DNA of 64,000 nt from an uncultured Actinomycetota bacterium (GCA_963794245.1 CAWCDD010000005.1:498059-562058), one strand, 5' to 3'; shown: positions 1,079 to 32,091, numbered from the stretch's first letter. A program made the numbers and translations. Notes: generated from the sequence alone by a model not told the origin.

Positions 1079-1158
1079 AATAGTTAGCCTCCGGCCGTTA
1101 GAGCGATGCGCTGTAGCTGAACAAGATTGGCGTAGTGCTGGTGTGACGGTGCGGGGTG

Positions 1159-2429: not shown

Positions 2430-2475
2430 AAAGGTGGCAGTCTGGTGAAGTCAGAGAAGTTTGATATATGTCTCA
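2411..2475 (+). promoter_or_regulatory. Divergent arsR/cadI control region with two direct copies of an operator-like 20-mer
   Basis: GAAGTTTGACATATATCAAA (2411-2430) and GAAGTTTGATATATGTCTCA (2456-2475) are 16/20 identical and 45 bp apart. They share an AT-rich dyad core TTTGAyATATrTC in GC-rich surroundings. A GGAGG SD at 2484-2488 precedes the cadI ATG at 2498. Confidence 0.55.
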
Positions 2476-2497
2476 TACCTGATGGAGGCCTGTCCCG

Positions 2498-2965: not shown

Positions 2966-2987
2966 TGCTGCTGAGCAGGACAGCCGG

Positions 2988-3021
2988 GATCGGCGGGCAC
3001 TTCCTCACGGGCCCGCCGATC
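2988..3021 (+). terminator. Stem-loop downstream of cadI (intrinsic-terminator-like, no U tract)
   Basis: GATCGGCGGGC (2988-2998), 12-nt loop, GCCCGCCGATC (3011-3021): a perfect 11-bp GC-rich stem 23 nt after the cadI stop. Confidence 0.5.
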
Positions 3022-3107
3022 TTGAGCTCATCACGAGATCGCGTTGCCGGCCAAGCATGAAGCCGATGTTTCGCCGATGGCGCGATTGCAGATGGATTCG
3101 ATATGAG

Positions 3108-3128
3108 TCAATATTGATGTATGTCAAA
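3108..3128. promoter_or_regulatory. Operator-like site overlapping the arsR start codon
   Basis: Perfect palindrome TCAATATTGA (3108-3117). On the minus strand, TTTGACATACATCAA (3114-3128) is 14/15 identical to TTTGACATATATCAA at 2415-2429. Confidence 0.5.
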
Positions 3129-3501
3129 GTCAGGCTACTCGGCGGCGGTACCGCACTGCCAGATCAAGCCGCTGGTGCGCGCACCGTTGTCTACACAGAC
3201 GGCCCTGGAGATAGCGGCGATGTTCAAAGCGCTATCGGACCCGGTGCGGTTACGCCTGTTTAGCTCCATAGCCAGCCACGCTGGCGGGGAGGCGTGCGTC
3301 TGCGAGATCTCGCAGGGCGTCGACCTGACGCAACCCACCATCTCCCATCACCTGAAGGTGTTGCGCGAGGCCGGGTTATTGAGATCTCAACGTCGCGCCT
3401 CGTGGGTGTATTACGCGGTTGTCCCGGAGGCGCTGAAAACCTTGTCGGCACTGCTGAGCGCCGACGCCGACACTGCACCATCTGCGGAGGTATACGCATG
3501 A
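3121..3501 (+). CDS. arsR: ArsR-family arsenite-responsive repressor (canonical CVC site)
   Basis: 126-aa ORF with FKALSDPVRLRLFSSIA, GGEACVCEISQGVDLTQPTISHHLKVLREAGLL and WVYY. Its stop overlaps the acr3 ATG (ATGA at 3498-3501). Confidence 0.9.
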   Translation: MSKSGYSAAVPHCQIKPLVRAPLSTQTALEIAAMFKALSDPVRLRLFSSIASHAGGEACVCEISQGVDLTQPTISHHLKVLREAGLLRSQRRASWVYYAVVPEALKTLSALLSADADTAPSAEVYA

Positions 3502-4610
3502 CCGACACCGTTGTCCCCGACGCCGCCCCCGCGGTGGTAGGCAAGCTGTCCAACCTCGACCGGTTCCTACCGGTATGGATCGGGCTGGCTATGGCGGCGG
3601 GCCTGCTGTTGGGCCGCTGGGTGCCCGGGGTGAACAACGTGATCCAGAAATTTCAAATCGACGGCATCTCCCTTCCGATCGCGCTCGGGCTGCTCATCAT
3701 GATGTATCCGGTGCTGGCGAAGGTCCGCTACGACCGGCTCGACACGGTAACGGCTGACCGCAAACTCCTGGTCAGCTCGCTGCTGCTGAACTGGCTGCTC
3801 GGGCCGGCGTTGATGTTCGCGTTCGCCTGGCTGCTACTGCCGGACCTTCCCGAGTACCGCACCGGCCTGATTATCGTCGGGTTGGCCCGCTGCATCGCCA
3901 TGGTGATCATCTGGAATGACCTTGCCTGCGGCGATACGGAAGCCGCAGCCGTGCTGGTGGCCCTGAACTCGATCTTTCAAGTCGTGATGTTTGCTGTGCT
4001 GGGCTGGTTCTATCTTTCGATACTTCCGGGCTGGCTCGGGCTGCCACAAACAACGATCACCACCTCGCCGTGGCAGATCGCCAAGGCGGTGATCATCTTC
4101 CTCGGTATACCGCTACTGGCCGGCTACCTGTCCCGACGGTTCGGGGAACGAGCCAAGGGTCGCGACTGGTACGAGCAGACCTTCCTGCCCTGGGTCGGGC
4201 CCTGGGCGTTGTACGGGCTGCTTTTCACCATCGTCATTCTCTTTGCACTGCAAGGAAATCAGATCACCAGCCGACCCTTGGACGTGGCGCGGATCGCTCT
4301 TCCGCTGCTCGCTTACTTCGCGGTCATGTGGGGCGGAGGCTACTTGCTAGGCGCCGTCCTGCATCTGGGCTACCCACGGACCACCACCCTGGCCTTCACC
4401 GCGGCCGGCAACAACTTTGAGCTCGCCATCGCCGTTGCCATCGCCACCTACGGCGCCACCTCCGGGCAGGCACTCGCCGGCGTAGTCGGTCCCCTCATCG
4501 AGGTACCCGTCCTGGTTGCGCTGGTCTACGTCTCGCTGGCACTGCGACGTCGGTTCGGCCCGCGCCACATCACCGCCCCCGCAGGCTCGCTCGCGCAGAA
4601 GCGTGCGTGA
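3498..4610 (+). CDS. acr3: Arsenite efflux permease, ACR3 family
   Basis: The ORF track gives 3294..4610. The internal ATG at 3498 (MTDTVVPDAAPAVVGKLSNLDRFLPVWIG...) removes the overlap with arsR and gives about 370 aa and about 10 TM segments. The conserved GLARCIAMVIIWN Cys motif is present. Confidence 0.9.
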   Translation: MTDTVVPDAAPAVVGKLSNLDRFLPVWIGLAMAAGLLLGRWVPGVNNVIQKFQIDGISLPIALGLLIMMYPVLAKVRYDRLDTVTADRKLLVSSLLLNWLLGPALMFAFAWLLLPDLPEYRTGLIIVGLARCIAMVIIWNDLACGDTEAAAVLVALNSIFQVVMFAVLGWFYLSILPGWLGLPQTTITTSPWQIAKAVIIFLGIPLLAGYLSRRFGERAKGRDWYEQTFLPWVGPWALYGLLFTIVILFALQGNQITSRPLDVARIALPLLAYFAVMWGGGYLLGAVLHLGYPRTTTLAFTAAGNNFELAIAVAIATYGATSGQALAGVVGPLIEVPVLVALVYVSLALRRRFGPRHITAPAGSLAQKRA

Positions 4611-4687
4611 CCGTCGACGACACAGGACTTCCATTGCGACCTGCGCTTTAACCCAGCACCGAATCATCCAGACCTAGGACCAGAGCG

Positions 4688-5092
4688 ATGAGCAAAATTG
4701 AGGTTTTCGAACCCGCGTTGTGTTGCGCCACCGGCGTGTGCGGTGCAGATGTCGACCAAGGCCTGGTGACGTTTTCCGCCGACTTGGATTTCGTCCGCAG
4801 CCGCGGTGGCGACGTTTCCCGCTACAACCTGGCGAGCGAACCGCTTGCGTTCGCCACTAATGACGCCGTGCGGGCGTTCCTGCAGATTGTTGGCTCCGAC
4901 GGACTGCCGCTGGTCCTCGTGGATGGGGTCACCGCCATGACTGGGCGCTACCCTGACCGTGCCCAGCTCGTTGCGTGGAGTGGGGCCGAGACGCCGGTAT
5001 CCACGGGACCGGTGATGCTTCCCATCACCGAAACGGGCTCGCCTGGCACTGGTTGCTGCAGCGGCAACGACTCAGACACGACGTGCTGCTGA
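4688..5092 (+). CDS. arsD: Arsenic metallochaperone/weak repressor ArsD
   Basis: 134-aa ORF: MSKIEVFEPALCCATGVCG (Cys12-Cys13-Cys18 triad), thioredoxin-like fold, C-terminal CC pairs (GTGCCSGNDSDTTCC). Confidence 0.9.
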   Translation: MSKIEVFEPALCCATGVCGADVDQGLVTFSADLDFVRSRGGDVSRYNLASEPLAFATNDAVRAFLQIVGSDGLPLVLVDGVTAMTGRYPDRAQLVAWSGAETPVSTGPVMLPITETGSPGTGCCSGNDSDTTCC

Positions 5093-5093
5093 C

Positions 5094-6863
5094 ATGAAGT
5101 TTCTGGACAGTCCCCCACGGTTTCTGTTCTTCACCGGTAAGGGCGGGGTAGGCAAAACCTCCATCGCGTGCGCTGCTGCAATCACCTTGGCCGCCGAGGG
5201 CAGCAAGGTCCTGCTGGTCAGCACCGACCCGGCCTCGAATGTGGGGCAGGTCTTTGGATTGAGCATCGGCAACACCATCACCGCGATCCCGTCCGCCGCA
5301 GGGCTCTCGGCGTTGGAGATCGACCCCGAACAGGCCGCCGACGCGTACCGCGAACGCATCATCGGCCCGGTCCGCGGGCTGCTGCCTGAGGCGGAGGTGG
5401 CCTCGATCACCGAACAACTCTCCGGCTCGTGCACTACCGAGATCGCTTCCTTCAACGAATTCACCGAACTGCTCACCGATTCCGACGGCCAAATCGGCCG
5501 GTTCGACCACGTGTTGTTCGACACGGCACCGACCGGGCATACCATCCGGCTGCTGCAATTGCCCGGCTCGTGGACCGACTTCCTCAACGACGGCAAGGGC
5601 GACGCGTCCTGCCTGGGGCCGCTAGCCGGCCTGGACAAACACCGCACCGTCTACGCCGCTGCGGTGGCCGCGTTGGCTGATCCGCAGCGCACCCGCCTCG
5701 TGCTGGTGGCCCGCGCCCAGAAATCCACACTCGCGGAAATCACCCGCACCCACCGTGAACTCGCCACTATCGGACTGAGGCGTCAATACGTCGTCATCAA
5801 CGGAGTGCTGCCCGCCCCCACCGAGGACGGCGACCCGCTCGCCACGGCGATCTACCATCGCGAGCAGCAGGCGATCGCATCCCTGCCCGACGAACTGCGT
5901 TCTCTACCAATCGATCAGGTTGGACTCAAGCCCACCAACATCGTCGGCGTGGACGCATTGGCGACATTGTTTACTCCGAATGCGGACATAGGCGACCGGC
6001 CAAATGAACCATCCCTCGGCATCGTCGACGCCCCGTTGGCGACCCTGATCGACGAACTCGTCGCCGCCGAGCACGGATTGATCATGTGTATGGGCAAGGG
6101 CGGGGTCGGCAAGACAACCATCGCCGCCGCGATTGCGGTGGCGCTCGCCGACCGCGGCCACCACGTGCACCTCACCACCACCGACCCGGCCGGGCACCTC
6201 ACCGACACACTGCACGGAACACTGGACAACCTGCAGGTGTCGGGCATCGACCCTATCGAGGCGACTCGCCTCTACCGCGACCACATACTGGCTACCAAGG
6301 GTGCCGCACTCGACGAACAGGGCCGAGCGACACTTGCCGAAGACTTACGCTCCCCGTGCACCGAGGAGGTCGCGGTGTTCCAGGCGTTCTCCCGCGTCAT
6401 CAGCGAATCACAGCACAAGTTCGTGGTCGTCGACACTGCACCGACCGGACACACGCTGCTGCTACTCGACACAACCGGCTCCTACCACCGCGAAATCGCC
6501 CGGCAACTGGGCAACCGGCACTTCACGACTCCGCTGATGAGGTTGCAGAACCCGCAGCAAACCAAAGTCATCATCGTCACTCTCGCCGAAACCACCCCGG
6601 TCCTCGAAGCCGCGGGGCTCGAGAGCGAACTCGAACGCGCCGATATCCACCCCTGGGCCTGGATCGTCAACAACTCGCTCGCGGCCGCAAACCCTACGGC
6701 ACCTCTGCTCCGCCAGCGGGCACTCGCGGAGCTGCCGGAGATCGACAAGGTGAGAAACCATTACGCAGATCGGGTTGCCATAGTGCCACTGCTTGCGGCC
6801 GAACCAGTTGGCATTCCAGCTTTGGAAGCACTCACTGAGCCGCGAGCTGCGATGACCCGCTGA
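5094..6863 (+). CDS. arsA: Arsenite-stimulated ATPase ArsA (two-domain A1-A2)
   Basis: 589-aa ORF. Two P-loops, GKGGVGKTS and GKGGVGKTT. Two DTAPTGHT signal-transduction motifs. Metalloid-site Cys in SGSCTTEIASFNEF, GDASCLGPLAGL and RSPCTEEVAVFQAF. Confidence 0.95.
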   Translation: MKFLDSPPRFLFFTGKGGVGKTSIACAAAITLAAEGSKVLLVSTDPASNVGQVFGLSIGNTITAIPSAAGLSALEIDPEQAADAYRERIIGPVRGLLPEAEVASITEQLSGSCTTEIASFNEFTELLTDSDGQIGRFDHVLFDTAPTGHTIRLLQLPGSWTDFLNDGKGDASCLGPLAGLDKHRTVYAAAVAALADPQRTRLVLVARAQKSTLAEITRTHRELATIGLRRQYVVINGVLPAPTEDGDPLATAIYHREQQAIASLPDELRSLPIDQVGLKPTNIVGVDALATLFTPNADIGDRPNEPSLGIVDAPLATLIDELVAAEHGLIMCMGKGGVGKTTIAAAIAVALADRGHHVHLTTTDPAGHLTDTLHGTLDNLQVSGIDPIEATRLYRDHILATKGAALDEQGRATLAEDLRSPCTEEVAVFQAFSRVISESQHKFVVVDTAPTGHTLLLLDTTGSYHREIARQLGNRHFTTPLMRLQNPQQTKVIIVTLAETTPVLEAAGLESELERADIHPWAWIVNNSLAAANPTAPLLRQRALAELPEIDKVRNHYADRVAIVPLLAAEPVGIPALEALTEPRAAMTR

Positions 6864-6947
6864 CCAACGCCGAGATCGACGTTGTCGTCGGCGGACCGAT
6901 AAGAGGTGCCGGCGGTTCGAACTGCCCGCAAGGCTCGGCCGGTAGTT

Positions 6948-7037
6948 TGGCGGTGGCGGAGGGATTTGAACCCTCGGACGGTTTTAGCCGTCACACGCTT
7001 TCGAGGCGTGCTCCTTAGGCCGCTCGGACACGCCACC
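6948..7037 (-). tRNA. tRNA-Ser (anticodon CGA), CCA encoded
   Basis: Reverse complement: GGTGGCG-TG-TCCGAGCGGCCTAAGGAGC, anticodon arm CACGC-CTCGAAA-GCGTG, long variable arm, T arm GAGGG-TTCAAAT-CCCTC, CGCCACC-G-CCA. The 3' end faces the ars cluster. Confidence 0.9.
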
Positions 7038-7066
7038 GCCGAGCAGCTTACCCAAACAGTCGCCGC

Positions 7067-7582
7067 TCACCCCAATCGCTGGCGAGCGAAGAACTCCTCC
7101 AGCGGCACGGCGCACTCCTGGGCGAGCACACCGCCGCGGACCTCCGGTCGGTGATTGAGCCGGCGGTCGCGGACCACGTCCCACAGCGATCCGACGGCTC
7201 CGGTCTTGGGTTCCCACGCACCGAACACCAGCCGCGCGACGCGCGCCAGGACCAGGGCGCCCGCGCACATCGTGCAGGGTTCGACGGTGACGGCCAACGT
7301 GGCTCCCTCCAGCCGCCACCCGTCGCCGAGCACCGTGGCCGCCGCGCGCATCGCTACGACTTCCGCGTGCGCGGTCGGATCACCAAGGGCCTCACGGGCA
7401 TTCGCCGCCCGCGCAAGTTCGGTTCCGTCGGCAGCGACGACCACCGCGCCGATCGGCACATCGCGGGGGCCCGCCGTCGCGGCGGCCTCCAGCGCGGCCC
7501 GGATCAGCTCTTCGTCGGTCCTCACCGATCCAGTCTGACGGCGGCGACCCGCCGCGCCCGGCTTCGCCGCGCTTGCGATCAC
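7067..7582 (-). CDS. tadA: tRNA adenosine(34) deaminase TadA (Rv3752c-like)
   Basis: Contains HAEVVAMR and TVEPCTMCAGAL, the CDA zinc motifs H(A)E and PCxxC. The maximal ORF is 171 aa. GTG at 7525 (VRTDEELIRAAL) would give 152 aa, as in Mtb. Confidence 0.85.
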   Translation of the reverse strand: MIASAAKPGAAGRRRQTGSVRTDEELIRAALEAAATAGPRDVPIGAVVVAADGTELARAANAREALGDPTAHAEVVAMRAAATVLGDGWRLEGATLAVTVEPCTMCAGALVLARVARLVFGAWEPKTGAVGSLWDVVRDRRLNHRPEVRGGVLAQECAVPLEEFFARQRLG

Positions 7583-8100
7583 CGACCGAGGCGGTCGATC
7601 ACCGCCGACAGCTGGTCGGCGAAGCCCATCTCGCGGGCGATGCGGCCCAATTGCTCGTCGGCGTAGAGGTCGGACTCATCGAGGATGACGCCCAGCACCG
7701 CCTCGGGCAGCCCGATGTCGGACAGCAACCCGAGGTCGCCTTCTTCGAACGGATCCGCTTCCTCCAGGTCCTCGGGATCGATGTCGGCGTCCAGGTTGTC
7801 CAGAACTTCGGCGGCGATGTCGTAGTCCAGTGCCGCCGTCGCATCCGAGAGCAGCAGCCGGGTTCCCGACGGTGCGGGACGCACGATGACGAAGAATTCG
7901 TCGTCGATGTCGAGGAGCCCAAAGACCGCTCCCGCACTACGCAGTTCACGCAATTCTGTCTCGGCGGCAGCCAGGCTCGTCAGCGATTTGGGGGCCATCA
8001 CAGAGCAACGCCATTGGCCCTCTTCGCGAACGACGGCGACGCCGAAGCCGTCCGGTGTGTCCACGGACGGGCCTTGCGTTGCGGCCCGCTCTCGTCCCAT
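7579..8100 (-). CDS. Conserved acidic protein, Rv3753c-like (tRNA adenosine deaminase-associated protein family)
   Basis: 173-aa ORF. Its stop overlaps the maximal tadA ORF, the C-half is acidic (DADIDPEDLEEADPFEEGDLG), and its syntenic position is between tadA and tyrA. Confidence 0.65.
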   Translation of the reverse strand: MGRERAATQGPSVDTPDGFGVAVVREEGQWRCSVMAPKSLTSLAAAETELRELRSAGAVFGLLDIDDEFFVIVRPAPSGTRLLLSDATAALDYDIAAEVLDNLDADIDPEDLEEADPFEEGDLGLLSDIGLPEAVLGVILDESDLYADEQLGRIAREMGFADQLSAVIDRLGR

Positions 8101-16171: not shown

Positions 16172-16342
16172 CGGCTCTTCTCGCAATCCTGGCGCCACCC
16201 CGTCGCCGAACGTGCTCTGAGGGCGGGTTTTCGGCGAATTTCTCGCCCTCAAGCACGTTCGACGCGGCTGTTGGTGCCGGGCCGGACTAGCGGTATCCCC
16301 GGAGAATGCTATTCTCCACACAGAGAGTGGGGTGTGCGGACA

Positions 16343-17390
16343 ATGACGACTGCTGGTGAAACCCAACTGGACCCGGGTGTTCTGGGTCGATGGCTCGACG
16401 CCAACGACGCTCCGGGCAGCGGCGAGGAACCGCTGCTGGAGCAGCTCAAGGGCGGTTCGCAGAACACGCTGTATCTGATTGCGCGCGGCAGCGAGCGGAT
16501 GGTGCTGCGGATGCCCGGCGCCCGCGCGGACGCGGCCCGCATCGACGGCCTGCTGCGCGAGATCCGGCTGGTGCGGGCACTGTCGGGCACCGACGTCCCG
16601 CACGCCGAGCTGATCGCCGCCGACGACAGCGGCACCGTGCTCGGCATGCCGTTCTACGTGATGCGGGCGATCGACGGCTGGAGCCCGATGGACGGCGGCT
16701 GGGAGCCACCGTTCGACACCGACCTGGATGCGCGGCGCGGGCTCGCGTTCGAACTCGTCGAGGGCGCCGCCAAGCTGGGCCGGGTCGACTGGCGCGGCCA
16801 AGGACTCGAGGGCTTTGGCCGCCCGGACGGATTCCACGATCGACAGGTCGATCGCTGGCTGGCGTTTCTCGACTCCTACAAGGTGCGCGAACTTCCCGGT
16901 CTGGACGAGGCCGCCGATTGGCTGCGCCGCAACCGTCCCGCGCAGTACACAGCCGGGCATCATGCACGGCGACTATCAGTTCGCCAACGTGATGTTCGCG
17001 CACGGCGGCCCGGCTCGGCTGGCCGCGATCGTGGACTGGGAGATGACGACGGTCGGCGATCCGCTGCTGGACCTGGCCTGGGCGCTGCTGGGCTACGACG
17101 GCGAAAACCCCAGCGACGACGGGTTTTATCTGGACATGAAGGGGATGCCGACGCGCAGCGAATTACTGGGTCACTACGAGAAGGTCAGCGGGCTGTCCAC
17201 CGAGAACATCGACTACTACCTGGTGCTGGCCAACTGGAAACTCGGCATCGTGCTGGAAAAGACCTACGCTGCCGGCGTGCGGACCGGAAAGGTCGACCCG
17301 AAGATCCACGACGCCTTCGGGGCGATGATCCCGCGGCTGATCGCGACGGCGGCCGAGCTGGCGCGTAGCCTGCCGACGCGGCGCGCTGAA
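16343..17390 (+). pseudogene. APH-fold phosphotransferase, frame-disrupted
   Basis: Frame 2 reads MTTAGETQLDPGVLGRWLD...WLRRNRPAQYT up to 16951. The continuation PGIMHGDYQFANVMF...IVDWEMTTVGDPLLD is in frame 0 from 16953, so there is one extra base at about 16952. The intact paralog in this window (27738-) reads ...RPATWTPGIMHGDYHAANVMF across the same point. There is no in-frame stop before the next gene's ATG at 17391. Confidence 0.8.
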
Positions 17391-18178
17391 ATGGGTTACG
17401 CGGATGAACTTTTCGACCTCACCGATCGCGTGGTGCTGATCACCGGCGGCAGCCGTGGGCTGGGACGGGAAATGGCCTTCGCCGCCGCGCGCTGCGGCGC
17501 CGACGTGGTGATCGCCAGCCGCAACTTCGACAACTGCGTGGCCGCCGCCAAGGAAGATCGAGGCCGAGACCGGGCGCACCGCCATGCCTTACGGCGTGCA
17601 CGTCGGACGCTGGGACCAACTCGACGGATTGGTCGACGCCACCTACGAACGGTTCGGCAAAGTCGACACCTTGATCAACAACGCGGGCATGTCGCCGCTG
17701 TACGACAAGCTGAGCAACGTCACCGAGAAGTTGTTCGACGCGGTGGTGAACCTGAATCTCAAAGGGCCCGTTCCGGCTATCGGCGTTGGTGGGTGAGCGG
17801 ATGGTGGCCGCGGGCAGCGGGTCGATCATCAACGTGAGCTCCACCGGGTCGCTGCGCCCGAACGGCGGCATCATTCCCTACGCGGCCGCCAAGGCCGGGC
17901 TCAACGCGATGACCGAAGGACTGGCGCAGGCGTTCGGGCCGACGGTGCGGGTCAACACGCTGATGGCGGGGCCCTACTTGACCGACGTCAGCAAGGCGTG
18001 GGACCTCGGCGGGGACAATAACTTCAGCCACCTCTTCTTGAAACGCGCCGGCGATCCGCGCGAAATCGTCGGCGCCGCACTGTTCTTGGCGTCCGACGCG
18101 TCCAGTTTCACGACCGGTTCGATTCTGCGGACCGACGGCGGAATTCCCTACGTGGCGACGCAACGGGTAGGCGAGTAG
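17391..18178 (+). pseudogene. Short-chain dehydrogenase/reductase (SDR), two frame disruptions
   Basis: MGYADELFDLTDRVVLITGGSRGLG...AAAKE is in frame 0. IEAETGRTAMPYGVHVGRWDQ...NNAGMS...VNLNLK is in frame 1, with an extra base at about 17556. GPFRLSALVGERMVAAGSGSIINVSS...YAAAKAGL...SILRTDGG is in frame 2, with an extra A in the run 17761-17763. Confidence 0.8.
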
Positions 18179-18186
18179 ACATTCGA

Positions 18187-19495
18187 ATGTCTTGGGATTT
18201 CTCTACCGAGCCGGAGTTCGAGAAGAAGCTCGCCTGGGTTCGCGAGTTCGTGCGCGAAGAGGTGGAACCGCTCGAGGTGCTGTTCCCGGGCTGCGAGTTC
18301 TTGCCGCTCAATGACGAGCGCCGGCGCATCGTCGATCCGCTCAAGCAGCAGGTCCGCGACAATGGCTTGTGGGCACCGCATCTGGGCCCAGAGCTCGGCG
18401 GCCAGGGCTTCGGCGCGGTCAAGCTGACGTTGATCAACGAGATTCTGGGCCGCAGCCCGTGGGCGCCGATCGTCTTCGGCACCCAAGCGCCCGACACCGG
18501 CAACGCGGAGATCATCGCCCGCTTCGGGACCCAGGATCAGAAGGACCGCTACCTGTCCGGGCTGCTGTCCGGAGAGATCTTTTCCTGCTTCTCGATGACC
18601 GAACCGCAAGGCGGTGCCGATCCGCGCGTCTTCACCACCCGCGCCGTCCGCGACGGCGACGAATGGGTGATCACCGGGCGAAAGTACTTCTCCTCCAACG
18701 CCGCTGTCGCGTCGTTCTTCATTGTCGTCGCGATCACCGATCCCGACGTTCCCGTCCATAGCGGCGCCTCGACGTTCCTGATCCCCGCCGACACCGAAGG
18801 GCTGATCCTGGAAGCCAACCACCACCTGGTGGGAGCGGACCCGCACGAACCGGGGCATTCCCTGGTGCACTACGACGACGTGCGAGTGCCTCAAGACGCG
18901 CTGCTCGGCGAACCCGGTCAGGGCTTCCTGATCCTGCAGACCCGGTTGGCCGGCGGCCGGCTGCACCATGCGATGCGCGTCCATCGGGATGGCGCAACGC
19001 GCGGTCGAGATGATGTCGCGGCGCGCGAAAAGCCGCTTCACCCAGGGCAGCTCGTTGGCCGACAAGCAGCTGGTGCAAGAGTTCGTCGCCGACTCCTATA
19101 CCGAGCTGATCCCGTTTCGGTTGACCGTGCTGCACGCCGCGTGGCTGATTGACAGCGGCGACGAGCATGGTGCGCGCGCCGAGATCGGCGCCTGCAAGAT
19201 CCTTGCGTCGCAGGTCTTGAAATCGATTGCGCTGCGCGCGATCCAAGTGCATGGTGCGCTCGGGCTCACCGATCAGCTGCCCCTGGTCAACGTGTTGTTG
19301 GGCGGCATCGCGCTCGGTCTGGCCGACGGGCCGACCGAGGCACACAAGGTCAATCTGGCCCGGATGCTGCTCAAGGGGTACGACGCCGAAGAAGGCGACT
19401 GGCCCAGTGAGATGCTCGAAGTTCGCCGTGCCGCGGCCCGGGAGAAGTACGGCGCACTCGTCGGTAGCGTTCCCGCGCAACCACATTCGCCATGA
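18187..19495 (+). pseudogene. Acyl-CoA dehydrogenase, one frame disruption
   Basis: Frame 1 reads MSWDFSTEPEFEKKLAWVREF...SMTEPQGGADP...LQTRLAGGRLHHAMR up to 18978. SIGMAQRAVEMMSRRAKSRFTQGSSLADKQLVQ... follows in frame 2 from 18980, so there is an extra base at about 18979. Confidence 0.8.
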
Positions 19496-20099
19496 CGAAC
19501 AGAGTCACCGCGGCTGTCGAACGCGCCCTGGACGACCGGCAACGCGAGGCTACCGAGGAGGTCGAACGCATCCTGGCCGCCGCGGTGCGGGTGATGGAGA
19601 CGGGTCGCGCCCGAGCCGCCGCGCGTCAGTGACATCGTCACCGAGGCCGGCTCGTCGAACAAGGCGTTCTACCGGTACTTCGCCGGCAAGGACGATCTCA
19701 TCCTGGCCGTGATGGAACGCGGGGTCGGGATCGTCGTCTCCTACCTGCAACACCAGATGGCCAAAGAGCCACACCCGCAGGACAAGATCGCCCGCTGGAT
19801 CGAGGGCACGCTCGCGCAAGTGGCCGAGCCACATCTGATCAGCAAGAGCCGCGCCGCGGCCGGTCAGATGTCGGCCGACTGGCGCGCGGTCGACCAGGAA
19901 ATGATGCGGCCGCTGCGAGACCTGCTGGTCGAACCGGTTGCGGCGCTGGGCAGTAACGATGTCGAACGCGACGTCGAGGCGGTGTTCTGCTGCACGGCGG
20001 CGACGATGCGACGATACGTGGGCTCGGCCGAGTCGGCCCGGGCCCGACGACATCGCACATGTGGTCCGGTTCTGTCTCAACGGATTGGGAGTCAATTGA
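19492..20099 (+). pseudogene. TetR-family regulator, two frame disruptions
   Basis: ATG at 19492 overlaps the ACAD stop (ATGA). MTNRVTAAVERALDD...AAVRVME is in frame 1. RVAPEPPRVSDIVTEAGSSNKAFYRYFAGKDDLILAV... (the HTH) is in frame 2, with extra base 19600. PDDIAHVVRFCLNGLGVN-stop is in frame 0, with an extra G in the run 20040-20042. Confidence 0.75.
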
Positions 20100-21068
20100 T
20101 GCGCGCCGTTGTCTGTCGCTCCTACGGTCCGCCGGAAGAGTTTGGTGCTCGACGACGTTCCCGAGCCCGTCCCGGCACCCGGCCAGATGTTGGTGCGGGT
20201 CCACGCCGCGGCAGTCAACTTCCCCGACGTGCTGTTCATCGCCGGCAAGTACCAGATCAAGATTCCACCGCCGTTCATACCGGGCAATGAGATTGCCGGG
20301 GAGGTGATCTCCGTCGGTGATGGCGCGCCGTTCCGTCCAGGCCAGCGGGTAGCCGGAACCACCTTCGGAGCGTTCGCCGAACAGGCGCTGCTCGACACGA
20401 CTCAGGCCTCGCTGGTGCCCGACGACGCGGACTTCGCATCGGCTGCGGCCTTCGGCGTGACCTACCGCACCGCGTATCACGCCTTGCGCTCGACCGCCGC
20501 TGTGGCAGAAGGGGATTGGGTCGTGGTGCTGGGCGCGGCAGGCGGAGTGGGTTTGGCCGCTGTTGATCTGGCCGTGGCGATGGGGGCTCGGGTGCTGGCC
20601 GCGGCGTCGAGCCCGGAGAAACTCGAGCTGTGCCGGCAGCGCGGCGCCGAAGCCACGGTCGACTACGACCGCGAGGATCTCAAGACACGCATCCGCGAAC
20701 TCACCGGGGATGCCGCCCGAGTGGTGCTGGATCCGGTCGGGGGATCGTATGCGGAGCCGGCGCTGCGCGGTCTGGCGCGCGGCGGCACCTTCGTCACCCT
20801 GGGCTATGCGGCGGGCACCATCCCGGCCATTCCGCTCAATCTCATTCTGCTCAAAGATATCTGCGTGCGGGGTATGGAGATCCGCACCTTCATGAGCGAC
20901 TACCCCGATGAGGCCGTCCGCGACATCGAAGAGTTGGCGCAGATGTTCGCCGCGGGCACGGTCCGTCCTTACATCGGCGCGCGATTCCCGCTGTCGGAGA
21001 CCCCGGCCGCGTTGCGGCACGTGGCCGATCGCAAGGTGCTGGGCAAGGTCGTCATCGACGTCGCGTGA
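20099..21068 (+). pseudogene. Zn-independent quinone oxidoreductase (MDR family), N-terminal frame disruption
   Basis: ATG at 20099 overlaps the TetR stop (TGATG). MRAVVCRSYGPPEE is in frame 2, then LVLDDVPEPVPAPGQMLVRVHAAAVNFPD...GAAGGVGLAAV... is in frame 0. There is an extra T in the TTT run 20141-20143. The rest of the gene (the 319-aa ORF) is intact. Confidence 0.7.
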
Positions 21069-21084
21069 CCCGGCTGGTTGCCGC

Positions 21085-22982
21085 CTAGGGCGTGACGATG
21101 TTGAAGCTCGGGTCCGGTTTGTCCAGCACATCCAGCAACGTCTGCAGTGCCGACCGGTCTCCGGAGATGTCGAGCCCGGCTGAGGTGAAGTCGCCCATCG
21201 CCACCGCCAACAAGCGAGACTTGCTTGTCCAGCTTGACCGTAACGGCCGCCGAGGCGGAGTCGGCGGCGACTTTGCGGTAGACAAGCACCCCGTTGCGCA
21301 GGTTGAGCCGGTAGTTGACCGCCAGATCGGCAAAGGAGATGTCGATGGCAATATCGAGGTCCCAGCTGCGCGGCCCGTTGACGCTAATGGCAAGGCTGTC
21401 AAGGATCTGCTCCGGCGTCAGTTGACTGAGCATCGACATAGAAGTGGCCGTAGTAGCGGTGCCGAAATTCCCGTCGCGCAATTCGGTTGCGCCGCTCATG
21501 AAGAAGTTGCGCCACGTCGCATTCTCGGCGCCGTAGCCCAGTTGCTCCAAGGTGTCCACGTACAGCGCGCGGGCCGCGCCGTGATCGCTGTCGGTGAAGA
21601 TCGCATGATCCAGCAGCGTCGCGGCCCAACGAAAATCACCGGCGTCGAAAGCCGCTTGGGCAAGCTCGACGACGCGATCGATCCCGCCCATCGCCTCGAC
21701 GTAGCGGGGCGCCAGCGCCTCGGGCGGGTGCGGCCACAGCCGGCCGGGATTGCCGTCGAACCAACCCATGTAACGCTGGTAGACGGCCTTGACGTTGTGG
21801 CTGACCGACCCGTAGTAACCGCGGGTATGCCATACCTGGTCCAAAGCCGGTGGCATCTGGAACATTTCGGCGATCTCCACGCCGGTGTAGCCCTGGTTGA
21901 GCAGCCGCAATGTCTGGTCGTGCAGGTAGGCATACAGGTCCCGCTGCAGCGACAAGAATTCGACGATGCTGTCCTGGCCCCAGGTCGGCCAGTGATGGGA
22001 CGCGAACACGACGTCGGAACGCCCGGCGAAAGTGTCGATCGCTTCGGTGAGATAACCCGCCCAGGCGTGCGGGTCTCGGACCAGGGCGCCGCGCAAGGTG
22101 AGCAGGTTGTGCAGATTGTGGGTGGCATTCTCGGCCATGCACAACGCGCGGAAACGCGGGAAATAGAAATGCATTTCGGCGGGAGCCTCGGTGCCGGGCG
22201 CCATCTGAAACTCGATCTCCACACCGTCGATCGTGTGCTTTTCGCCGGTCTGGCGGATGTCGATGGTCGGGACGATGATGGCGACCTCGCCGGTGGACGG
22301 GGCCTGGCCAAGCCCGCAACCAACCTGCCCCTGGGGTCCGCGTTCCAGCAGGGTGCCGTACATATAGGTGGCCCGCCGGGTCATCGCGGGTCCGGCGTAG
22401 ACGTTCTCCTGCACGGCATGCGCGGTGAAGCCCTCCGGCGCCAGCACCGCGACCTTGCCGGCATCGACGTCCGCCTGCGAGGTCACGCCCAGCACGCCGC
22501 CGAAATGGTCGACGTGGCTGTGCGTGTAGATCACCGCGACGACGGGGCGATCGCCGCCGCGGTGGGCGCGGTAGAGGTTCAGCGCCGCCGCGGCCACCTC
22601 GGTGGACACCAGTGGGTCGATGACGATGATCCCGGTGTCACCTTCGATGAAGCTGATGTTGGAGAGGTCGAGAGCCGCGGACCTGATAGATGCCCGGCAC
22701 CACCTCGTACAGGCCTTGCTTGGCGTTCAGCCCCGATTGGCGCCACAGGCTGGGGTGCACCGAGGTTGGCGCGGGACCGTCGAGGAAGGCGTAGACATCG
22801 TTGTCCCACACCACACGTCCGTCGGCCGCCTTGATGACGCAGGGCGACAAGGACGCGATGAAGCCACGATCGGCATTGTCGAAATCCGTTGTGTCATCCC
22901 AGGGCAGGGCATGTTCGCGATGCGCCGACTCGATGATCGCGGTGGGAGGTTTGTGGTCCACCGGCAATACCTTGCCATTAAC
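21085..22982 (-). pseudogene. Alkyl/aryl sulfatase (MBL fold + SCP2 tail; Rv3762c-like), two frame disruptions
   Basis: Three minus-strand pieces. The first is ...KPPTAIIESAHREHALPWDD...GLYEVVPGIYQVRG. After an extra base at 22673 comes LDLSNISFIEGDTGIIVIDPLVSTEV...THSHVDHFGG...VTVKLDK. After an extra base at 21223 comes KSRLLAVAMGDFTSAGLDISGDRSALQTLLDVLDKPDPSFNIVTP-stop at 21085. The start is uncertain (GTG around 22982). Confidence 0.8.
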
Positions 22983-23136
22983 GCACCCTTGCCCGAAAGC
23001 ACATGTCGAGAGCAGACGAGTTAACCGCAGACGAAACAATTTGCCTGAAACCTCTTTTGCGCGGCCCGGCAAACCCGCATACTGCGTTCACGGCCCCCAA
23101 TGTTGAGGACCGCAACGATCGGGCAAAGGAGAACAA

Positions 23137-26337: not shown

Positions 26338-26454
26338 CGTGACCTCCGTTGTGTTCGAGAAGGATTTTCTCGGTGCCTAGACGATACCCGTTAGACCCGT
26401 GTCTAAACATCGCCGTGGCCAACTTGTGGACCCCTGAAAGCAACGACCTGAGCA

Positions 26455-27737: not shown

Positions 27738-28799
27738 GTGGAGCACGTGGACTTGAACGCCGTCGCGGAATGGATGTCCGGGCAGGGACTGGGCGAGGGC
27801 CCGCTGCAGGATGTTTCGGCCGTCACCGGCGGAACGCAGAACGTGATGCTGCGGTTCGTCAGGTCCGGACGGCCCTATGTGCTGCGGCGCGGACCACGAC
27901 ACCTGCGTCCGCGCAGCAACAGCGTGATCCTGCGGGAAACCAAAGTCCTTGCGGCGCTGGCCGGTTCTGATGTGCCGCACCCGCACCTGATCGCGGTGTG
28001 CGACGACACGAGTGTGCTCGGCGAGGCCGTCTTCTACCTGATGGATCCGGTCGACGGATTCAACGCCGGCGAGGGACTGCCGCCGCTGCATGCCGGCGAT
28101 GCCGGCGTGCGGCACGGCATGGGCCTGTCGATGGCCGATGCGCTGGCGAAGCTGGGTGCCGTCGACCACGTCGCGGTGGGTCTCGCCGACTTCGGCAAGC
28201 CGGAGGGCTTCCTGGAACGCCAGGTGCCGCGCTGGCTTTCGGAGCTGGACTCCTACAGCGAGTACGACGGCTACCCCGGGCCGCAGATCCCGGGCATCGA
28301 GGAAGTGTCGACCTGGCTGGAACGTCACCGTCCGGCGACGTGGACGCCCGGCATCATGCACGGCGACTACCACGCCGCCAACGTGATGTTCTCCCGCACC
28401 GGGCCGGACGTGGTCGCGATCGTCGACTGGGAGATGTGCACGATCGGTGACCCGCTGCTGGATCTGGGCTGGCTGCTGGCCACCTGGCGCCAGCCGGACG
28501 GGTCCAGCGTGTTCAGCCACGCCCTGGGCGGACAGGACGGATTGGCCAGCACCGACGAACTATTCGAGCGCTACGCCGCCAACACCACCCGCGACCTGTC
28601 GCATATCACCTGGTACACCGTGCTGGCCTGCTTCAAGCTGGGCATCGTGATCGAGGGCACGCTGGCCCGCGCGTGTGCCGGCAAGGCCGAGAAGGAGGTC
28701 GGCGATCAACTCCACGCGGCCACGGTCCACCTGTTCGAGCGTGCGCTGACCCAGATCGAGTCCGAGGGGGCCCGGGTGACCGGATTAGCATCTCCTGAC
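27738..28799 (+). CDS. APH-fold phosphotransferase (3' end uncertain)
   Basis: GTG at 27738 (VEHVDLNAVAEWMSGQGLGEG...), then GIMHGDYHAANVMF and IVDWEMCTIGDPLLD. In the given sequence the frame reads through to 29546 (656-aa ORF). Third-position GC collapses at 28782-28796, and a G5 run (28766-28770) precedes out-of-frame stops at 28777 and 28796. Confidence 0.65.
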
Positions 28800-29281: not shown

Positions 29282-29355
29282 CGGTCCGAGAAGCCGAGCA
29301 ACTAGGGTCATGGCCATGAGTCGGCTCGAGCGCGGCCTGGCACGGTCTACGGGAC

Positions 29356-29571: not shown

Positions 29572-29761
29572 TTGCCCCGGTCAGGGTTCACGGACGAACG
29601 CACCACATGGCTCGGGGTCGGTGGAAGCAGGACAGTCAGACCCGATCGGGTACGGTTTAACACGTCGGTAACCTTGTCGGCGCTCAGGGATGACTTGTTG
29701 AACGTTGGGCTCATTGCCCAGCCACGATCCCGTCGCCTTCCGAGACTTCTCAGAGGAATCT

Positions 29762-30928
29762 ATGTCTTCGCGTGCCAGCAGTACCCCTTATTTCAACGCG
29801 TCCAAACAAAGCGATCCGGCAGCTCTCTTCGCGTTGCCTGCTGGTTCCACCGCGATCGTCTACTGCGAGGGCCAGTTCGGCGAGCAGGACGGTAAGACCG
29901 CCAACGGCCTGGTCAGGCACTCGGAGAAATACGAGATCCTCAGCGTCATCGACAGCCTCCGCGCCGGCATGGATGCCGGGAAGTTCCTCGACGGCACCGC
30001 GAACGGCATCCCGGTGCTGGCTTCGCTCACCGAGGCCATCTCGCATGCCGGCCACGTACCCGACTACCTGATCTGCGGGCTGGCACCTGCCGACGGCCTA
30101 CTGTCGAGCGAGCAGCGGGTCGTGCTGCTCGACGGCATCGCCCGTGGGATGCACATCATCAACGGCCTGCACGAGTTCCTCAACGCCGACGCCGAATTCG
30201 TGGCGGCCGCCGTGATCGCGGGTGTCACCATCACCGACGTGCGCCGACCCAAGGCCAAGCGCGACCTGCATCTGTTCTCCGGCCGGATCTTCGACGTCAC
30301 ATGCCCCAGGATCGCGATCCTGGGTACGGACGGGGCGATCGGTAAGCGCACCACCGCCACGCTGCTGGTCCAGGCACTGAACGCGCGTGGCATCAAGACG
30401 GTCATGGTCGGCACCGGTCAGACCACCTTGATCCAGGGCGGTAAGTACGGCGTCGCGCTGGATGCGCTGGTCCCCCAGTTCTGCTCGGGCGAGGTCGAGC
30501 ACCAGGTCGTCGCCGCGTTCGAGGGCGAGGATCCCGACGTGATCGTCGTCGAGGGCCAGGGCGCACTCAGCCACCCCGCGTACATCACATCGGCGCACAT
30601 CCTGCGTGGCAGCCGCCCGGCCGGCGTGATCGTGCAGCACGCACCGAAGCGCAAGGTGCTCGGCGACTTCCCGATGGTGGCGATGCCGACCGCGGCCAGC
30701 GAGATCGCACTGATCGAGGCGTTCGCCGACACCCGCGTCATCGGGGTCACGATCAACCACGAGGAAATGACCGAAGACGAGCTGAGCAACGCGATCTCCG
30801 AACATCACTCGCAACTCGGCATCCCGGTCACCGACCCTCTGACGCGCCCCTCGTCGGATCTGGTCGACATGGTGCTGACGGCTTTCCCCGCGCTCGCGGT
30901 GGTGGCCGACACGAACACCTCGGTGTGA
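29762..30928 (+). CDS. DUF1611-family P-loop protein (DgcN-like N-acetyltransferase family)
   Basis: The ORF track gives 29705..30928; ATG at 29762 (MSSRASSTPYF...) is likely. It contains AIVYCEGQFG..GKTANGL and the P-loop ILGTDGAIGKRTTA. Confidence 0.7.
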   Translation: MSSRASSTPYFNASKQSDPAALFALPAGSTAIVYCEGQFGEQDGKTANGLVRHSEKYEILSVIDSLRAGMDAGKFLDGTANGIPVLASLTEAISHAGHVPDYLICGLAPADGLLSSEQRVVLLDGIARGMHIINGLHEFLNADAEFVAAAVIAGVTITDVRRPKAKRDLHLFSGRIFDVTCPRIAILGTDGAIGKRTTATLLVQALNARGIKTVMVGTGQTTLIQGGKYGVALDALVPQFCSGEVEHQVVAAFEGEDPDVIVVEGQGALSHPAYITSAHILRGSRPAGVIVQHAPKRKVLGDFPMVAMPTAASEIALIEAFADTRVIGVTINHEEMTEDELSNAISEHHSQLGIPVTDPLTRPSSDLVDMVLTAFPALAVVADTNTSV

Positions 30929-32091
30929 CGCTTCGGCTCGAGACCGATCTCGACAAGGTCGAGCAGAACACGCGCATCCTGGTTGACCGGCTGGCCTCCA
31001 AGGGCATTCGGGTCACCGGCATCACCAAGGCCGTGTTGGGCTCGCCGGGAGTCGGCGCGGCGATGCTGCGCGGCGGCGCCTGCGGCCTCGGCGATTCCCG
31101 GGTGCCGAACCTCGCCCGGCTGGCCGGTCTGGACCGACCACTGTCACGCACGTTGGTCCGCTCTCCCATGCTCAGCGAAGTGCCACGGGTCGTTGACGTC
31201 GCCGACGTCAGTCTAAACACCGAGGCCGTCGTGCTGGCCGCGCTCGATCAGGCCGCTTCCCAGCAGAAGCGGACGCACGCCGTCGTGCTCATGGTCGAGC
31301 TGGGTGACCTTCGCGAGGGAATCGTGATCGGCGACGCCCCCGAGGCCGTGCGGGCCGTCCTCGCTCACTCCTCCCTCCGGCTTGCCGGGCTCGGCGCCAA
31401 CCTCGCCTGTCAGAGCGGTGTCGTGCCTGACGACCGGAACATGGGCATCCTCACCGGGCTCGTGGACGACGTCGAGGCACTGCACGGGATCTCCCTCGAC
31501 GTCGTCTCAGGCGGCAACTCGGCGAACCTGAGCTGGGCTCTGCGCACCCAGGACGTCGGCCGCATCAACGAGCTCCGACTCGGCGAAGCCATCCTGCTCG
31601 GCGTCGATCCGCTGTACCGGACGCCGATCCCCGGCCTACACACGAACGCCTTCACGTTGACCGCCGAGGTCATCGAGGTCGGCATGAAGCCGGCTCAGCC
31701 GTGGGGTGATCGTGGCCAGGCGGCCTTCGGTGAGGCGCCGGTCCGCACCGGCAGCAAGACCGTGCGTCAAGCAATCCTGGCCCTCGGTCGCCAGGACGTG
31801 GACCCAGACAGTCTGCAGCCACCCGAGGGCATCACGATCCTCGGGGTGAGCAGTGATCACCTCGTAGTCGACCTCGGCGATCACTCTGTCGCGGTCGGCG
31901 ACGAAATCGGCTTCGGCGTCGGCTACGGCGCACTCGTGCGGGCGATGACGTCGCCCTTCGTCACCAAGATCGAGCACCTTGGCCGTTCGGTCGCACCCGA
32001 GGCGATCCAGGCGCCGACACCGGTCCAGGTTTCGACCCCCCGCCCGGTGCCGGACACCGATGCCGGTGGCGAACCGCCCTTCCCAGCTTGA
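30925..32091 (+). CDS. PLP-dependent amino-acid racemase, alanine-racemase N-terminal-domain family (COG3457-like)
   Basis: 388-aa ORF with a GTGA start/stop overlap with the upstream gene. It contains ITKAVLG (candidate PLP Lys), VVSGGNS and RLGEAILLG, with a Pro-rich tail. Confidence 0.65.
   Translation: MTLRLETDLDKVEQNTRILVDRLASKGIRVTGITKAVLGSPGVGAAMLRGGACGLGDSRVPNLARLAGLDRPLSRTLVRSPMLSEVPRVVDVADVSLNTEAVVLAALDQAASQQKRTHAVVLMVELGDLREGIVIGDAPEAVRAVLAHSSLRLAGLGANLACQSGVVPDDRNMGILTGLVDDVEALHGISLDVVSGGNSANLSWALRTQDVGRINELRLGEAILLGVDPLYRTPIPGLHTNAFTLTAEVIEVGMKPAQPWGDRGQAAFGEAPVRTGSKTVRQAILALGRQDVDPDSLQPPEGITILGVSSDHLVVDLGDHSVAVGDEIGFGVGYGALVRAMTSPFVTKIEHLGRSVAPEAIQAPTPVQVSTPRPVPDTDAGGEPPFPA

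What the first reader, a model, noticed from the sequence alone, without database searches (positions are those of the whole stretch)
16343..22982. Six consecutive genes each broken by single extra bases while flanking and essential genes are intact
Reading-frame junctions, each placed by following a conserved protein sequence from one frame into another, lie at these positions:
- about 16952 (APH kinase)
- about 17556 and 17761-17763 (SDR)
- about 18979 (acyl-CoA dehydrogenase)
- 19600 and 20040-20042 (TetR)
- 20141-20143 (quinone oxidoreductase)
- 21223 and 22673 (alkyl sulfatase)

Each of the nine junctions is most simply explained as +1 nt; some fall in short homopolymers. By contrast arsA (589 aa), the PPE (1,772 aa), aftA (646 aa), embC (1,088 aa) and everything from 34 to 61 kb read through cleanly.

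The APH-SDR-ACAD-TetR-QOR part of this run, together with the intact phosphatase and methyltransferase genes at 14.8-16.2 kb, has no counterpart between Rv3761c and Rv3762c in H37Rv as I remember it.

There are two readings. One is genuine reductive decay of an accessory lipid-metabolism module plus the sulfatase. The other is a locally low-quality stretch of an insertion-prone assembly. The clustering argues against uniformly random error but cannot exclude the second reading.
Basis: seen in the sequence. Interest (0 to 1): 0.7.

Follow-up and report, generated by a model that had tools for sequence, protein, structure and literature searches.

The report
Assembly-error frameshifts, not decaying genes
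Six neighbouring mycobacterial genes look broken because single extra bases sit in the deposited sequence, but the pattern points to a consensus error of a long-read metagenome assembly, not to real gene decay.

Summary
All nine junctions are single extra bases, present in the window and absent from every one of 73 related mycobacterial loci. I found four more of the same kind: 23027, 23046, 26381 and 29347.

The "gene decay" reading fails.
- Deleting the nine in-gene bases restores full-length ACAD, TetR, QOR and sulfatase ORFs and an uninterrupted APH+SDR frame, with no internal stop in 2,165 codons. APH still lacks its own stop because of a separate -1.
- On the window's own branch, nonsynonymous:synonymous changes are 16:41, against 17:54 in intact flanking genes.
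- The nearest relative (~95.5% identical) has none of the lesions.

The lesion spectrum is unnatural. All 13 are +1, mostly outside homopolymers, and confined to 12.4 kb. At nearly every site the window carries, side by side, the two bases that relatives carry as alternative alleles of one column.

A control long-read-style contig (L083) shows the same signature: five clustered +1 insertions, absent from five short-read assemblies of the same population. In four of them the extra base is the alternative allele.

The window's proteins trace to one unannotated 863-kb contig of the Nanopore-only MAG type.

Verdict: consensus artefact, low biological interest.

The parts
16343..17389 (+). APH-family phosphotransferase gene, split by +1 at 16950. 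Its stop (TGA 17387-17389 in relatives) is out of frame because of a window-specific -1 near 17380.
   Evidence: Pfam APH positions 3-167 lie in one frame and 158-224 in the next. Alignments. After repair the ORF runs on into SDR.
16950..16950 (+). Extra base C. The window has AC where relatives have a single column (A in 25, C in 48; Lys/Gln codon).
17391..18178 (+). SDR (FabG-like) oxidoreductase gene, split at 17554 and 17767.
   Evidence: Pfam adh_short positions 1-44, 43-113 and 110-190 fall in three frames. The repaired protein matches NCBIfam SDR models end to end.
17554..17554 (+). Extra base. The window has GAAGATC where relatives have GAAGTC, GAGATC or GAAATC (third position of a Glu codon, A or G).
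17767..17767 (+). Extra base. The window has GGGCCCG where relatives have GGG|GGC followed by CCG (third position of a Gly codon: G in 30, C in 38).
18187..19495 (+). Acyl-CoA dehydrogenase gene (435 aa after repair), split at 18979.
   Evidence: Pfam N-terminal and middle domains lie in one frame and the C-terminal domain in another. The repaired ORF is intact.
18979..18979 (+). Extra base G. The window has CGCGTCC where relatives have CGC|CGG (Arg third position) followed by TCC|GCC.
19492..20099 (+). TetR-family regulator gene (201 aa after repair), split at 19599 and 20031.
   Evidence: Pfam TetR_N begins at profile position 19 in the 19595-20287 frame. The repaired ORF is intact.
19599..19599 (+). 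Extra base G. The window has GAGA where relatives have GAA (51) or GAG (21), a synonymous Glu codon.
20031..20031 (+). Extra base. The window has GCCGAGTCGG where relatives have GCC-AGT or GCC-GGT (Ser/Gly polymorphism). The placement of the extra base is ambiguous by 1 nt.
20099..21068 (+). Quinone oxidoreductase (zinc-ADH/PIG3 family) gene, shifted 37 nt after its ATG.
   Evidence: Pfam ADH_N and ADH_zinc_N. The repaired protein matches TIGR02824 positions 1-324 of 325.
20136..20136 (+). Extra A (A to AA). This is the only in-gene event with no polymorphism among the 73 relatives at the adjoining columns.
21085..22982 (-). Alkyl sulfatase (metallo-beta-lactamase fold, Rv3762c-like) gene on the minus strand, split at 21225 and 22672.
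   Evidence: Pfam Lactamase_B, Alkyl_sulf_dimr and Alkyl_sulf_C positions 2-76 lie in one frame, and Alkyl_sulf_C positions 71-125 in another. The repaired gene has 631 codons and no stop.
21225..21225 (-). Extra base. The window has CT on the + strand where relatives have a single column (C in 43, T in 26, G in 4; Ser/Asn codon).
22672..22672 (-). Extra base. The window has GA on the + strand where relatives have a single column (A in 51, G in 22; Phe/Leu codon).
23027..23027 (.). Extra base in the intergenic region upstream of the sulfatase. The window has GC where relatives have C or G.
23046..23046 (.). Probable extra base in the same variable intergenic region. It is less certain because it appears only in the 9-sequence alignment.
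26381..26381 (.). The window has TAGA where relatives have TAG and L001 has TAA.
29347..29347 (.). The window has TC where relatives have T or C. Whether this position is coding is unresolved.

Best explanation
The extra bases are consensus errors in a long-read-only metagenome-assembled genome. The organism is an uncultured Mycobacterium of the M. simiae complex. In the living organism the six genes are almost certainly intact and functional.

The most likely mechanism is this. In the stretch from about 16.9 to 29.4 kb, reads from two closely related co-occurring strains were collapsed into one contig. At some single-nucleotide differences between the strains, the consensus or polishing step wrote both alleles one after the other instead of choosing one. 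Each such site gains exactly one base, and the frame shifts wherever the site lies in a gene.

Shown:
- The bases are window-specific.
- All are +1.
- They are clustered.
- They lie at polymorphic columns and carry both alleles.
- Removing them restores the genes' reading frames, and the genes still show purifying selection.
- The same signature occurs as a proven error in a control contig.

Inferred:
- The window comes from a Nanopore/Flye/Medaka assembly.
- Strain mixture, rather than low coverage alone, is the cause.

My confidence that this is an artefact of some kind is about 0.93. My confidence in the 'both alleles in series' mechanism specifically is about 0.7.
For: 1. Uniqueness. Each of the nine in-gene insertions is absent from all 73 aligned relatives, including L001 at about 95.5% nucleotide identity.

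2. Spectrum. There are 13 insertions of exactly +1 and only one -1. There are no nonsense substitutions and no larger in-gene indels. Only four of the 13 duplicate a neighbouring base.

3. Repair. Deleting the bases gives ACAD of 435 aa, TetR of 201 aa, QOR of 323 aa, an SDR of 262 codons and a sulfatase of 631 codons, with no internal stops in 2,165 codons. The repaired proteins match family models end to end.

4. Selection. Changes on the window branch are N:S = 16:41 in the six genes and 17:54 in the flanking intact genes (Fisher p = 0.69). The branch rate is no higher, at 2.6% against 3.0% of codons. Identity to L001 is flat across the region.

5. Allele signature. At 8 of 10 sites by a strict test (null 0.28), or 10 of 10 by a lenient test (null 0.42-0.64, P = 1.7e-4 to 0.011), the window's dinucleotide consists of the two alleles that relatives carry in one column. 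Four of these are synonymous third positions. The sites at 26381 and 29347 fit as well.

6. Ground-truth control. L083 is a 1.2-Mb contig with a Flye-style name, held in ENA and NCBI. It carries five +1 insertions within 2.9 kb that split two genes. All five are absent from five independent short-read assemblies of the same population. In four of the five, the extra base is the allele that other species carry at the adjoining column.

7. Technology association. Singleton +1 events in coding sequence number 10 across 21 Microflora Danica Nanopore MAG loci, against 1 across 52 isolate or other MAG loci.

8. Source. The window's proteins occur on one 863,458-bp contig, held in NCBI and ENA without names or accessions. 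This is the same footprint as identified Microflora Danica MAG contigs: P0052/L060 at 280,633 bp and P0056/L027 at 6,168,405 bp. Those MAGs are Nanopore-only, assembled with Flye and polished with one round of Medaka, without short reads (PMC12313526). R10.4 consensus is near-finished only from about 40x coverage (PMC9262707).
Against: - No reads and no independent assembly of this same strain were available. The JGI metagenome scan found nothing closer than 95-96% amino-acid identity, so for this window the errors are inferred and not observed.
- The identity of the source assembly is inferred from database footprints. Look-ups of the window's own proteins returned no record.
- One in-gene event (20136) shows no polymorphism among relatives.
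- The allele-match test has a high null rate, because many columns vary among 73 diverse relatives.
- I found no paper that describes this exact 'two alleles in series' behaviour for Flye or Medaka. The nearest published analogue is indel errors in unphased PacBio assemblies that were cured by phasing (PMC5632298).
- Why only about 12 kb is affected is not explained by any data I could obtain.
Confidence: 0.87

Rival explanations
1. The insertions are assembly errors, but of a different origin. They are random residual insertion errors of a thinly covered stretch of a long-read assembly and have nothing to do with strain polymorphism.
For: Clustered indels are expected where coverage dips, and R10.4 consensus needs about 40x coverage. 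One Nanopore MAG locus, L008, shows mixed +1 and -1 singletons. Event 20136 and control event L083:3564 show no matching allele.
Against: Random errors would include deletions and would favour homopolymers. Here 13 of 14 events are +1 and most are not in runs. Random errors would not be enriched at polymorphic columns with the matching second allele.
Confidence: 0.08
2. The lesions are genuine. One strain is undergoing reductive decay of an accessory lipid-metabolism module and of the sulfatase gene.
For: Six consecutive non-essential genes are hit, while essential cell-wall genes (aftA, embC, dprE1/E2) are intact. Some members of the M. simiae complex, such as M. genavense, carry a few singleton frameshifts in the same genes (L003).
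Against: - There are no nonsense mutations or in-gene deletions.
- The N:S ratio on the window branch equals that of intact neighbours and is far from neutral.
- Divergence is not accelerated.
- Every lesion is +1 and lies at a polymorphic column.
- Identical-type events occur in intergenic DNA (23027, 26381).
- The sister genome L001 is intact.
- The truncated ACAD product is found on only one contig in 15 billion proteins.
Confidence: 0.04
3. The shifts are functional, through programmed +1 ribosomal frameshifting or transcriptional slippage that yields full-length products.
For: Nothing beyond the fact that all shifts go in the same direction.
Against: The nine sites share no motif. None is conserved in any of the 73 orthologous loci. 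Two genes would need two recoding events each. The same kind of insertion occurs in non-coding DNA.
Confidence: 0.01

Closest known systems
Frameshift (indel) consensus errors of long-read-only bacterial and metagenome assemblies, normally detected with IDEEL-type protein-length tests and removed by short-read polishing
   Same: The errors are single-base indels that split ORFs. They are specific to one assembly, absent from short-read assemblies of the same population (shown for control L083), and enriched in Nanopore-only MAG loci. The literature background is PMC9262707 and PMC12313526.
   Different: The classic Nanopore error is a length miscall in a homopolymer, usually a deletion. Here the events are insertions only, mostly outside homopolymers, tightly clustered, and sited at polymorphic columns.
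Indel errors in collapsed (unphased) haplotype assemblies of diploid genomes, cured by phasing (Korlach et al. 2017, PMC5632298)
   Same: The consensus is built over two similar haplotypes and acquires indels that break genes. The remedy is to separate the haplotypes.
   Different: That case concerned PacBio assemblies of diploid vertebrates. Here the 'haplotypes' would be co-existing bacterial strains in a soil or sediment metagenome. The mechanism was not demonstrated at read level.
Pseudogene clusters of host-restricted mycobacteria (M. leprae, M. ulcerans)
   Same: Runs of neighbouring metabolic genes have disrupted frames while cell-wall genes stay intact.
   Different: True decay shows mixed lesions (deletions, stops, IS elements), relaxed selection, and sharing among sister genomes. 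None of these is seen here.

Membership tests
Genuine pseudogene cluster (reductive evolution) | Reading frames are disrupted relative to intact orthologues. | tested here: met
   Nine +1 insertions lie in six genes.
Genuine pseudogene cluster (reductive evolution) | The lesion spectrum is mixed: deletions, insertions of various sizes, and nonsense substitutions. | tested here: not met
   All in-gene lesions are +1 apart from one terminal -1. There are no stops in 2,165 repaired codons.
Genuine pseudogene cluster (reductive evolution) | Selection is relaxed on the lineage that carries the lesions. | tested here: not met
   N:S on the window branch is 16:41, against 17:54 in the intact flanks (p = 0.69), and the rate is not elevated.
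Genuine pseudogene cluster (reductive evolution) | Lesions are reproducible in independent genomes or assemblies of the lineage. | tested here: not met
   The lesions are absent from L001 (95.5% identity) and from all other relatives. The truncated ACAD product occurs on one contig only. No same-strain assembly exists to test further.
Long-read consensus artefact (strain-collapsed MAG) | The sequence derives from a long-read-only metagenome assembly. | tested here: inconclusive
   The source is one 863-kb contig, unannotated, held in NCBI and ENA. This footprint is identical to that of identified Nanopore MAG contigs. The record itself could not be retrieved.
Long-read consensus artefact (strain-collapsed MAG) | The extra bases are absent from reads or from an independent assembly of the same population. 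| not testable with these tools
   No reads or same-strain assembly exist for the window. The feature is met for the analogous control L083 against five short-read assemblies.
Long-read consensus artefact (strain-collapsed MAG) | The error type is uniform and non-biological, and removing the errors restores intact conserved genes. | tested here: met
   There are 13 +1 events. The reading frames of all six genes are restored, and the repaired proteins match family models end to end.
Long-read consensus artefact (strain-collapsed MAG) | The errors coincide with sites of strain-level polymorphism, and both alleles are present. | tested here: met
   8 of 10 sites pass the strict test and 10 of 10 the lenient test, in both cases above the null rate. 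In the control, 4 of 5 do so. The polymorphism is inferred from relatives, not from the sample's own reads.
Programmed ribosomal frameshifting | A conserved slippery or stimulatory motif is present, and the shift is conserved in orthologues. | tested here: not met
   There is no shared motif, and no orthologue carries any of the shifts.

The most novel reading that the evidence does not exclude
The 13 extra bases are real. They would record a very recent, spatially confined burst of +1 insertions in one environmental Mycobacterium strain, for example a patch of error-prone repair synthesis. The burst would have inactivated a conserved six-gene block too recently for any other sign of decay to accumulate.
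Probability: 0.03. Interest if true: 0.6.

Novelty: not a real feature. Interest (0 to 1): 0.08.

Why it matters
Biologically this matters little. The APH-SDR-ACAD-TetR-QOR module and the Rv3762c-like sulfatase should be treated as intact in this organism and not counted as pseudogenes.

Practically there is a useful warning. Public Nanopore-only MAGs, some of which serve as GTDB species representatives, can carry tight clusters of +1 insertions that imitate localized gene decay. Four features recognise them without reads:
- Every event is +1.
- The events lie outside homopolymers.
- The extra base is the alternative allele of the adjoining column.
- dN/dS is unchanged.

These features could be turned into a reference-free filter before pseudogene or genome-reduction analyses of MAG catalogues.

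Tried and rejected
- Looking up the window's own proteins to name the source record returned nothing.
The best hit was 95-96% amino-acid identity, and ACAD was read through in the relatives.
- A GC3 frame plot was too noisy to use as a whole-window frameshift detector.
- Relatives fetched for 1-10 kb (L169) and for 29.7-32 kb (L170) are not syntenic. Those parts of the window were checked only at ORF and Pfam level.
- A merged minus-strand ORF around 29347 proved not to be a conserved protein.
- I looked for a common sequence motif, such as a methylation site, around the insertions and found none.
- I considered programmed frameshifting and rejected it.
- Literature searches did not find a description of this exact artefact for Flye or Medaka.
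Full report
**What is at the locus**

The window is high-GC mycobacterial DNA. From 8 to 26 kb it carries, in order:
- a tyrA-like gene
- a proXVWZ-like betaine transporter
- an Rv3761c-like APH-family gene
- a histidine phosphatase and a methyltransferase
- the block under study
- an LpqH 19-kDa lipoprotein gene
- a histidine kinase/response regulator pair

The block under study consists of:

| Gene | Coordinates | Strand |
|---|---|---|
| APH-family kinase | 16343-17389 | + |
| SDR | 17391-18178 | + |
| Acyl-CoA dehydrogenase | 18187-19495 | + |
| TetR regulator | 19492-20099 | + |
| Quinone oxidoreductase | 20099-21068 | + |
| Rv3762c-like alkyl sulfatase | 21085-22982 | - |

Pfam domains run from one frame into the next in every one of the six genes.

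**Checking the observation**

A genome-collection scan with the QOR protein returned 80 colinear loci.
- The closest is L001, a Microflora Danica Nanopore MAG at about 95.5% nucleotide identity.
- Next come M. montefiorense at about 91%, then M. triplex, M. genavense and other members of the M. simiae complex.

MAFFT alignments with 9 relatives and then with 73 relatives show window-only single-base insertions at 16950, 17554, 17767, 18979, 19599, 20031/2, 20136, 21225 and 22672.

The same method finds further events:
- +1 at 23027 and, less securely, at 23046, both just upstream of the sulfatase start
- +1 at 26381 and at 29347
- a window-specific -1 near 17380 that puts the APH stop codon out of frame

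No isolated window-specific 1-nt indel occurs in 10.0-16.9 kb, or in 34.8-47.3 kb and 53-64 kb. So 13 +1 events lie within 12.4 kb and none in about 30 kb of other tested sequence.

The truncated ACAD product is present verbatim in the public protein collection. The lesions are therefore in the deposited record.

**Why this is not gene decay**

- Deleting the inserted bases restores full-length ACAD (435 aa), TetR (201 aa), QOR (323 aa) and sulfatase (631 codons) ORFs and an uninterrupted SDR frame of 262 codons. APH then reads into SDR as one 634-aa ORF, because the separate -1 near 17380 removes the APH stop.
- There is not one internal stop in 2,165 codons.
- The repaired proteins match family models end to end.
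- I polarised substitutions with L001 as sister and L009, L008 and L013 as outgroups. The window branch has 16 nonsynonymous and 41 synonymous codon changes in the six genes, against 17 and 54 in the intact flanking genes (Fisher p = 0.69). The branch rate is no higher, at 2.6% against 3.0% of codons.
- Identity to L001 is flat across the region.

Eleven or more independent indels accumulating neutrally in 6 kb would come with many unconstrained substitutions, some stop codons and some deletions. None is seen. The sister genome lacks every lesion.

**What the lesions look like**

All 13 are +1, and only four duplicate a neighbouring base. The others place a different base between two bases, for example A^C^A, A^G^A or G^A^G. 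From general knowledge, spontaneous 1-nt indels in bacteria concentrate in homopolymer runs and include at least as many deletions as insertions.

At nearly every site the window carries a dinucleotide XY where relatives have one column that varies between X and Y:

| Position | Window | Relatives (one column) |
|---|---|---|
| 16950 | AC | A in 25, C in 48 |
| 17767 | extra C in GGGCCCG | GGG or GGC |
| 18979 | extra G in CGCGTCC | CGC or CGG |
| 19599 | GAGA | GAA or GAG |
| 20031 | GA | A or G |
| 21225 | CT | C or T |
| 22672 | GA | A or G |
| 23027 | GC | C or G |
| 26381 | TAGA | TAG or TAA |
| 29347 | TC | T or C |

Four of them are synonymous third codon positions, and the rest are natural amino-acid polymorphisms.

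By a strict criterion 8 of 10 sites fit, against a null rate of 0.28. By a lenient criterion 10 of 10 fit, against null rates of 0.42-0.64, giving P = 1.7e-4 to 0.011. Only 20136 shows no polymorphism among relatives.

**A control with known truth**

While fetching relatives I obtained L083. It is a 1.2-Mb contig with a Flye-style name, held in ENA and NCBI. I also obtained five short-read metagenome assemblies of the same population from different samples, L084-L088.
- L083 differs from all five by five +1 insertions within 2.9 kb. There are no deletions and no homopolymer involvement. The insertions split an aminotransferase gene and a DUF6541 gene that are intact in the short-read assemblies.
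- In four of the five, the extra base is the allele that other species (the window and M. montefiorense) carry at the adjoining column: GC for C|G at two sites, CG for G|C, and GA for A|G.

This is the same signature as in the window, and in L083 the insertions are demonstrably assembly errors.

**Association with technology**

In the 74-sequence alignment of the six genes I counted singleton +1 events in coding sequence.
- The 21 Microflora Danica Nanopore MAG loci have 10 (four in L058, three in L008, one each in L001, L062 and L080).
- The 52 isolate or other MAG loci have 1.

**Source of the window**

Its proteins occur on a single 863,458-bp contig held by NCBI and ENA, without protein names or accessions. 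This footprint is shared with contigs I can tie to Microflora Danica MAGs: 280,633 bp is L060 and 6,168,405 bp is L027.

Those MAGs were produced from Nanopore R10.4.1 reads with metaFlye and one round of Medaka, with no short-read polishing (PMC12313526). The same group reports near-finished consensus only from about 40x coverage (PMC9262707). [quoted passage not shown]

Indel errors caused by building a consensus over unphased haplotypes, and cured by phasing, are documented for PacBio assemblies (PMC5632298).

The attribution of this particular window to such an assembly is inference. The record itself could not be retrieved.

**Most likely mechanism**

Over about 16.9-29.4 kb the contig represents two co-assembled strains. 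At some of their SNPs the consensus step emitted both alleles in series.
- The signature and its status as an error in the analogous control are shown.
- The strain mixture in this sample, and the reason the affected stretch is limited to 12 kb, are inferred.

A plainer low-coverage explanation remains possible. It does not account for the insertion-only spectrum or for the allele matches.

**Verdict**

The feature is an artefact of the deposited sequence. Its only wider value is as a recognisable signature for cleaning MAG catalogues.

Noticed in passing
window 17377-17389: A window-specific 1-nt deletion in the last codons of the APH gene puts its TGA (17387-17389) out of frame. After the +1 errors are removed, APH and SDR read as one 634-aa ORF (16271-18178). 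This could be another consensus error or a real stop-loss fusion.
   Followed up: partly
window 28767-28779: A second APH-family gene (Pfam APH at 27813-28521) has a window-specific 7-nt insertion at its extreme 3' end. The insertion shifts the conserved TGA (28777-28779) out of frame, so the ORF runs on to 29543.
   Followed up: partly
window 18172-18177: A 6-nt window-specific insertion lies in the SDR-ACAD spacer. It interrupts the AGGAG ribosome-binding motif that all relatives keep about 8 nt upstream of the ACAD ATG (18187).
   Followed up: no
window 16301-16317: A perfect 7-3-7 palindrome, GGAGAAT-GCT-ATTCTCC, lies 26 nt upstream of the APH start. It sits inside a 50-nt block that is 100% identical in L008 and L009. 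It looks like an operator, plausibly for the TetR regulator encoded in the same block.
   Followed up: no
window 16208-16260: A terminator-like hairpin (GAACGTGCTCTGAGGGCG ... CGCCCTCAAGCACGTTC) follows the methyltransferase gene. It is present in the window, M. triplex (L013) and M. genavense (L003), and missing from L001, L008 and L009. It is a presence/absence polymorphism of a small palindromic element.
   Followed up: partly
L083 3564, 5501, 5876, 6040, 6433: A public 1.2-Mb long-read-style contig (ena:ERZ25039454:contig_3202) carries five clustered +1 insertions. They split an Aminotran_5 gene (into 106 + 286 aa) and a DUF6541 gene (into 157 + 341 aa). Both genes are intact (398 and 659 aa) in five short-read assemblies of the same population.
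   Followed up: yes
L058 and L008 (coordinates given as window equivalents: 18607, 20111, 21539, 22334 for L058; 16584-22022 for L008): Other Nanopore MAG loci, which are GTDB species representatives, carry their own private frameshifting singletons in the same six genes. L058 has four +1 events and L008 has seven mixed +/-1 events. The problem is therefore not confined to this window.
   Followed up: partly
window 29705-32091; L170 8829-11131: The DUF1611 plus alanine/ornithine-racemase gene pair sits in a quite different neighbourhood (MmpL/MmpS, LCM methyltransferase) in Mycobacterium sp. Dal123C01. This suggests a mobile two-gene cassette.
   Followed up: no
window 1-8000; L169: The first 8 kb have lower GC (0.61-0.64) and carry arsenic-resistance genes (an SBF/ACR3-type transporter at 3294-4610 and arsA at 5094-6863). 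The arsA segment is 89% identical to an ENA contig where it lies next to a DnaB helicase gene. This fits a horizontally acquired island.
   Followed up: no
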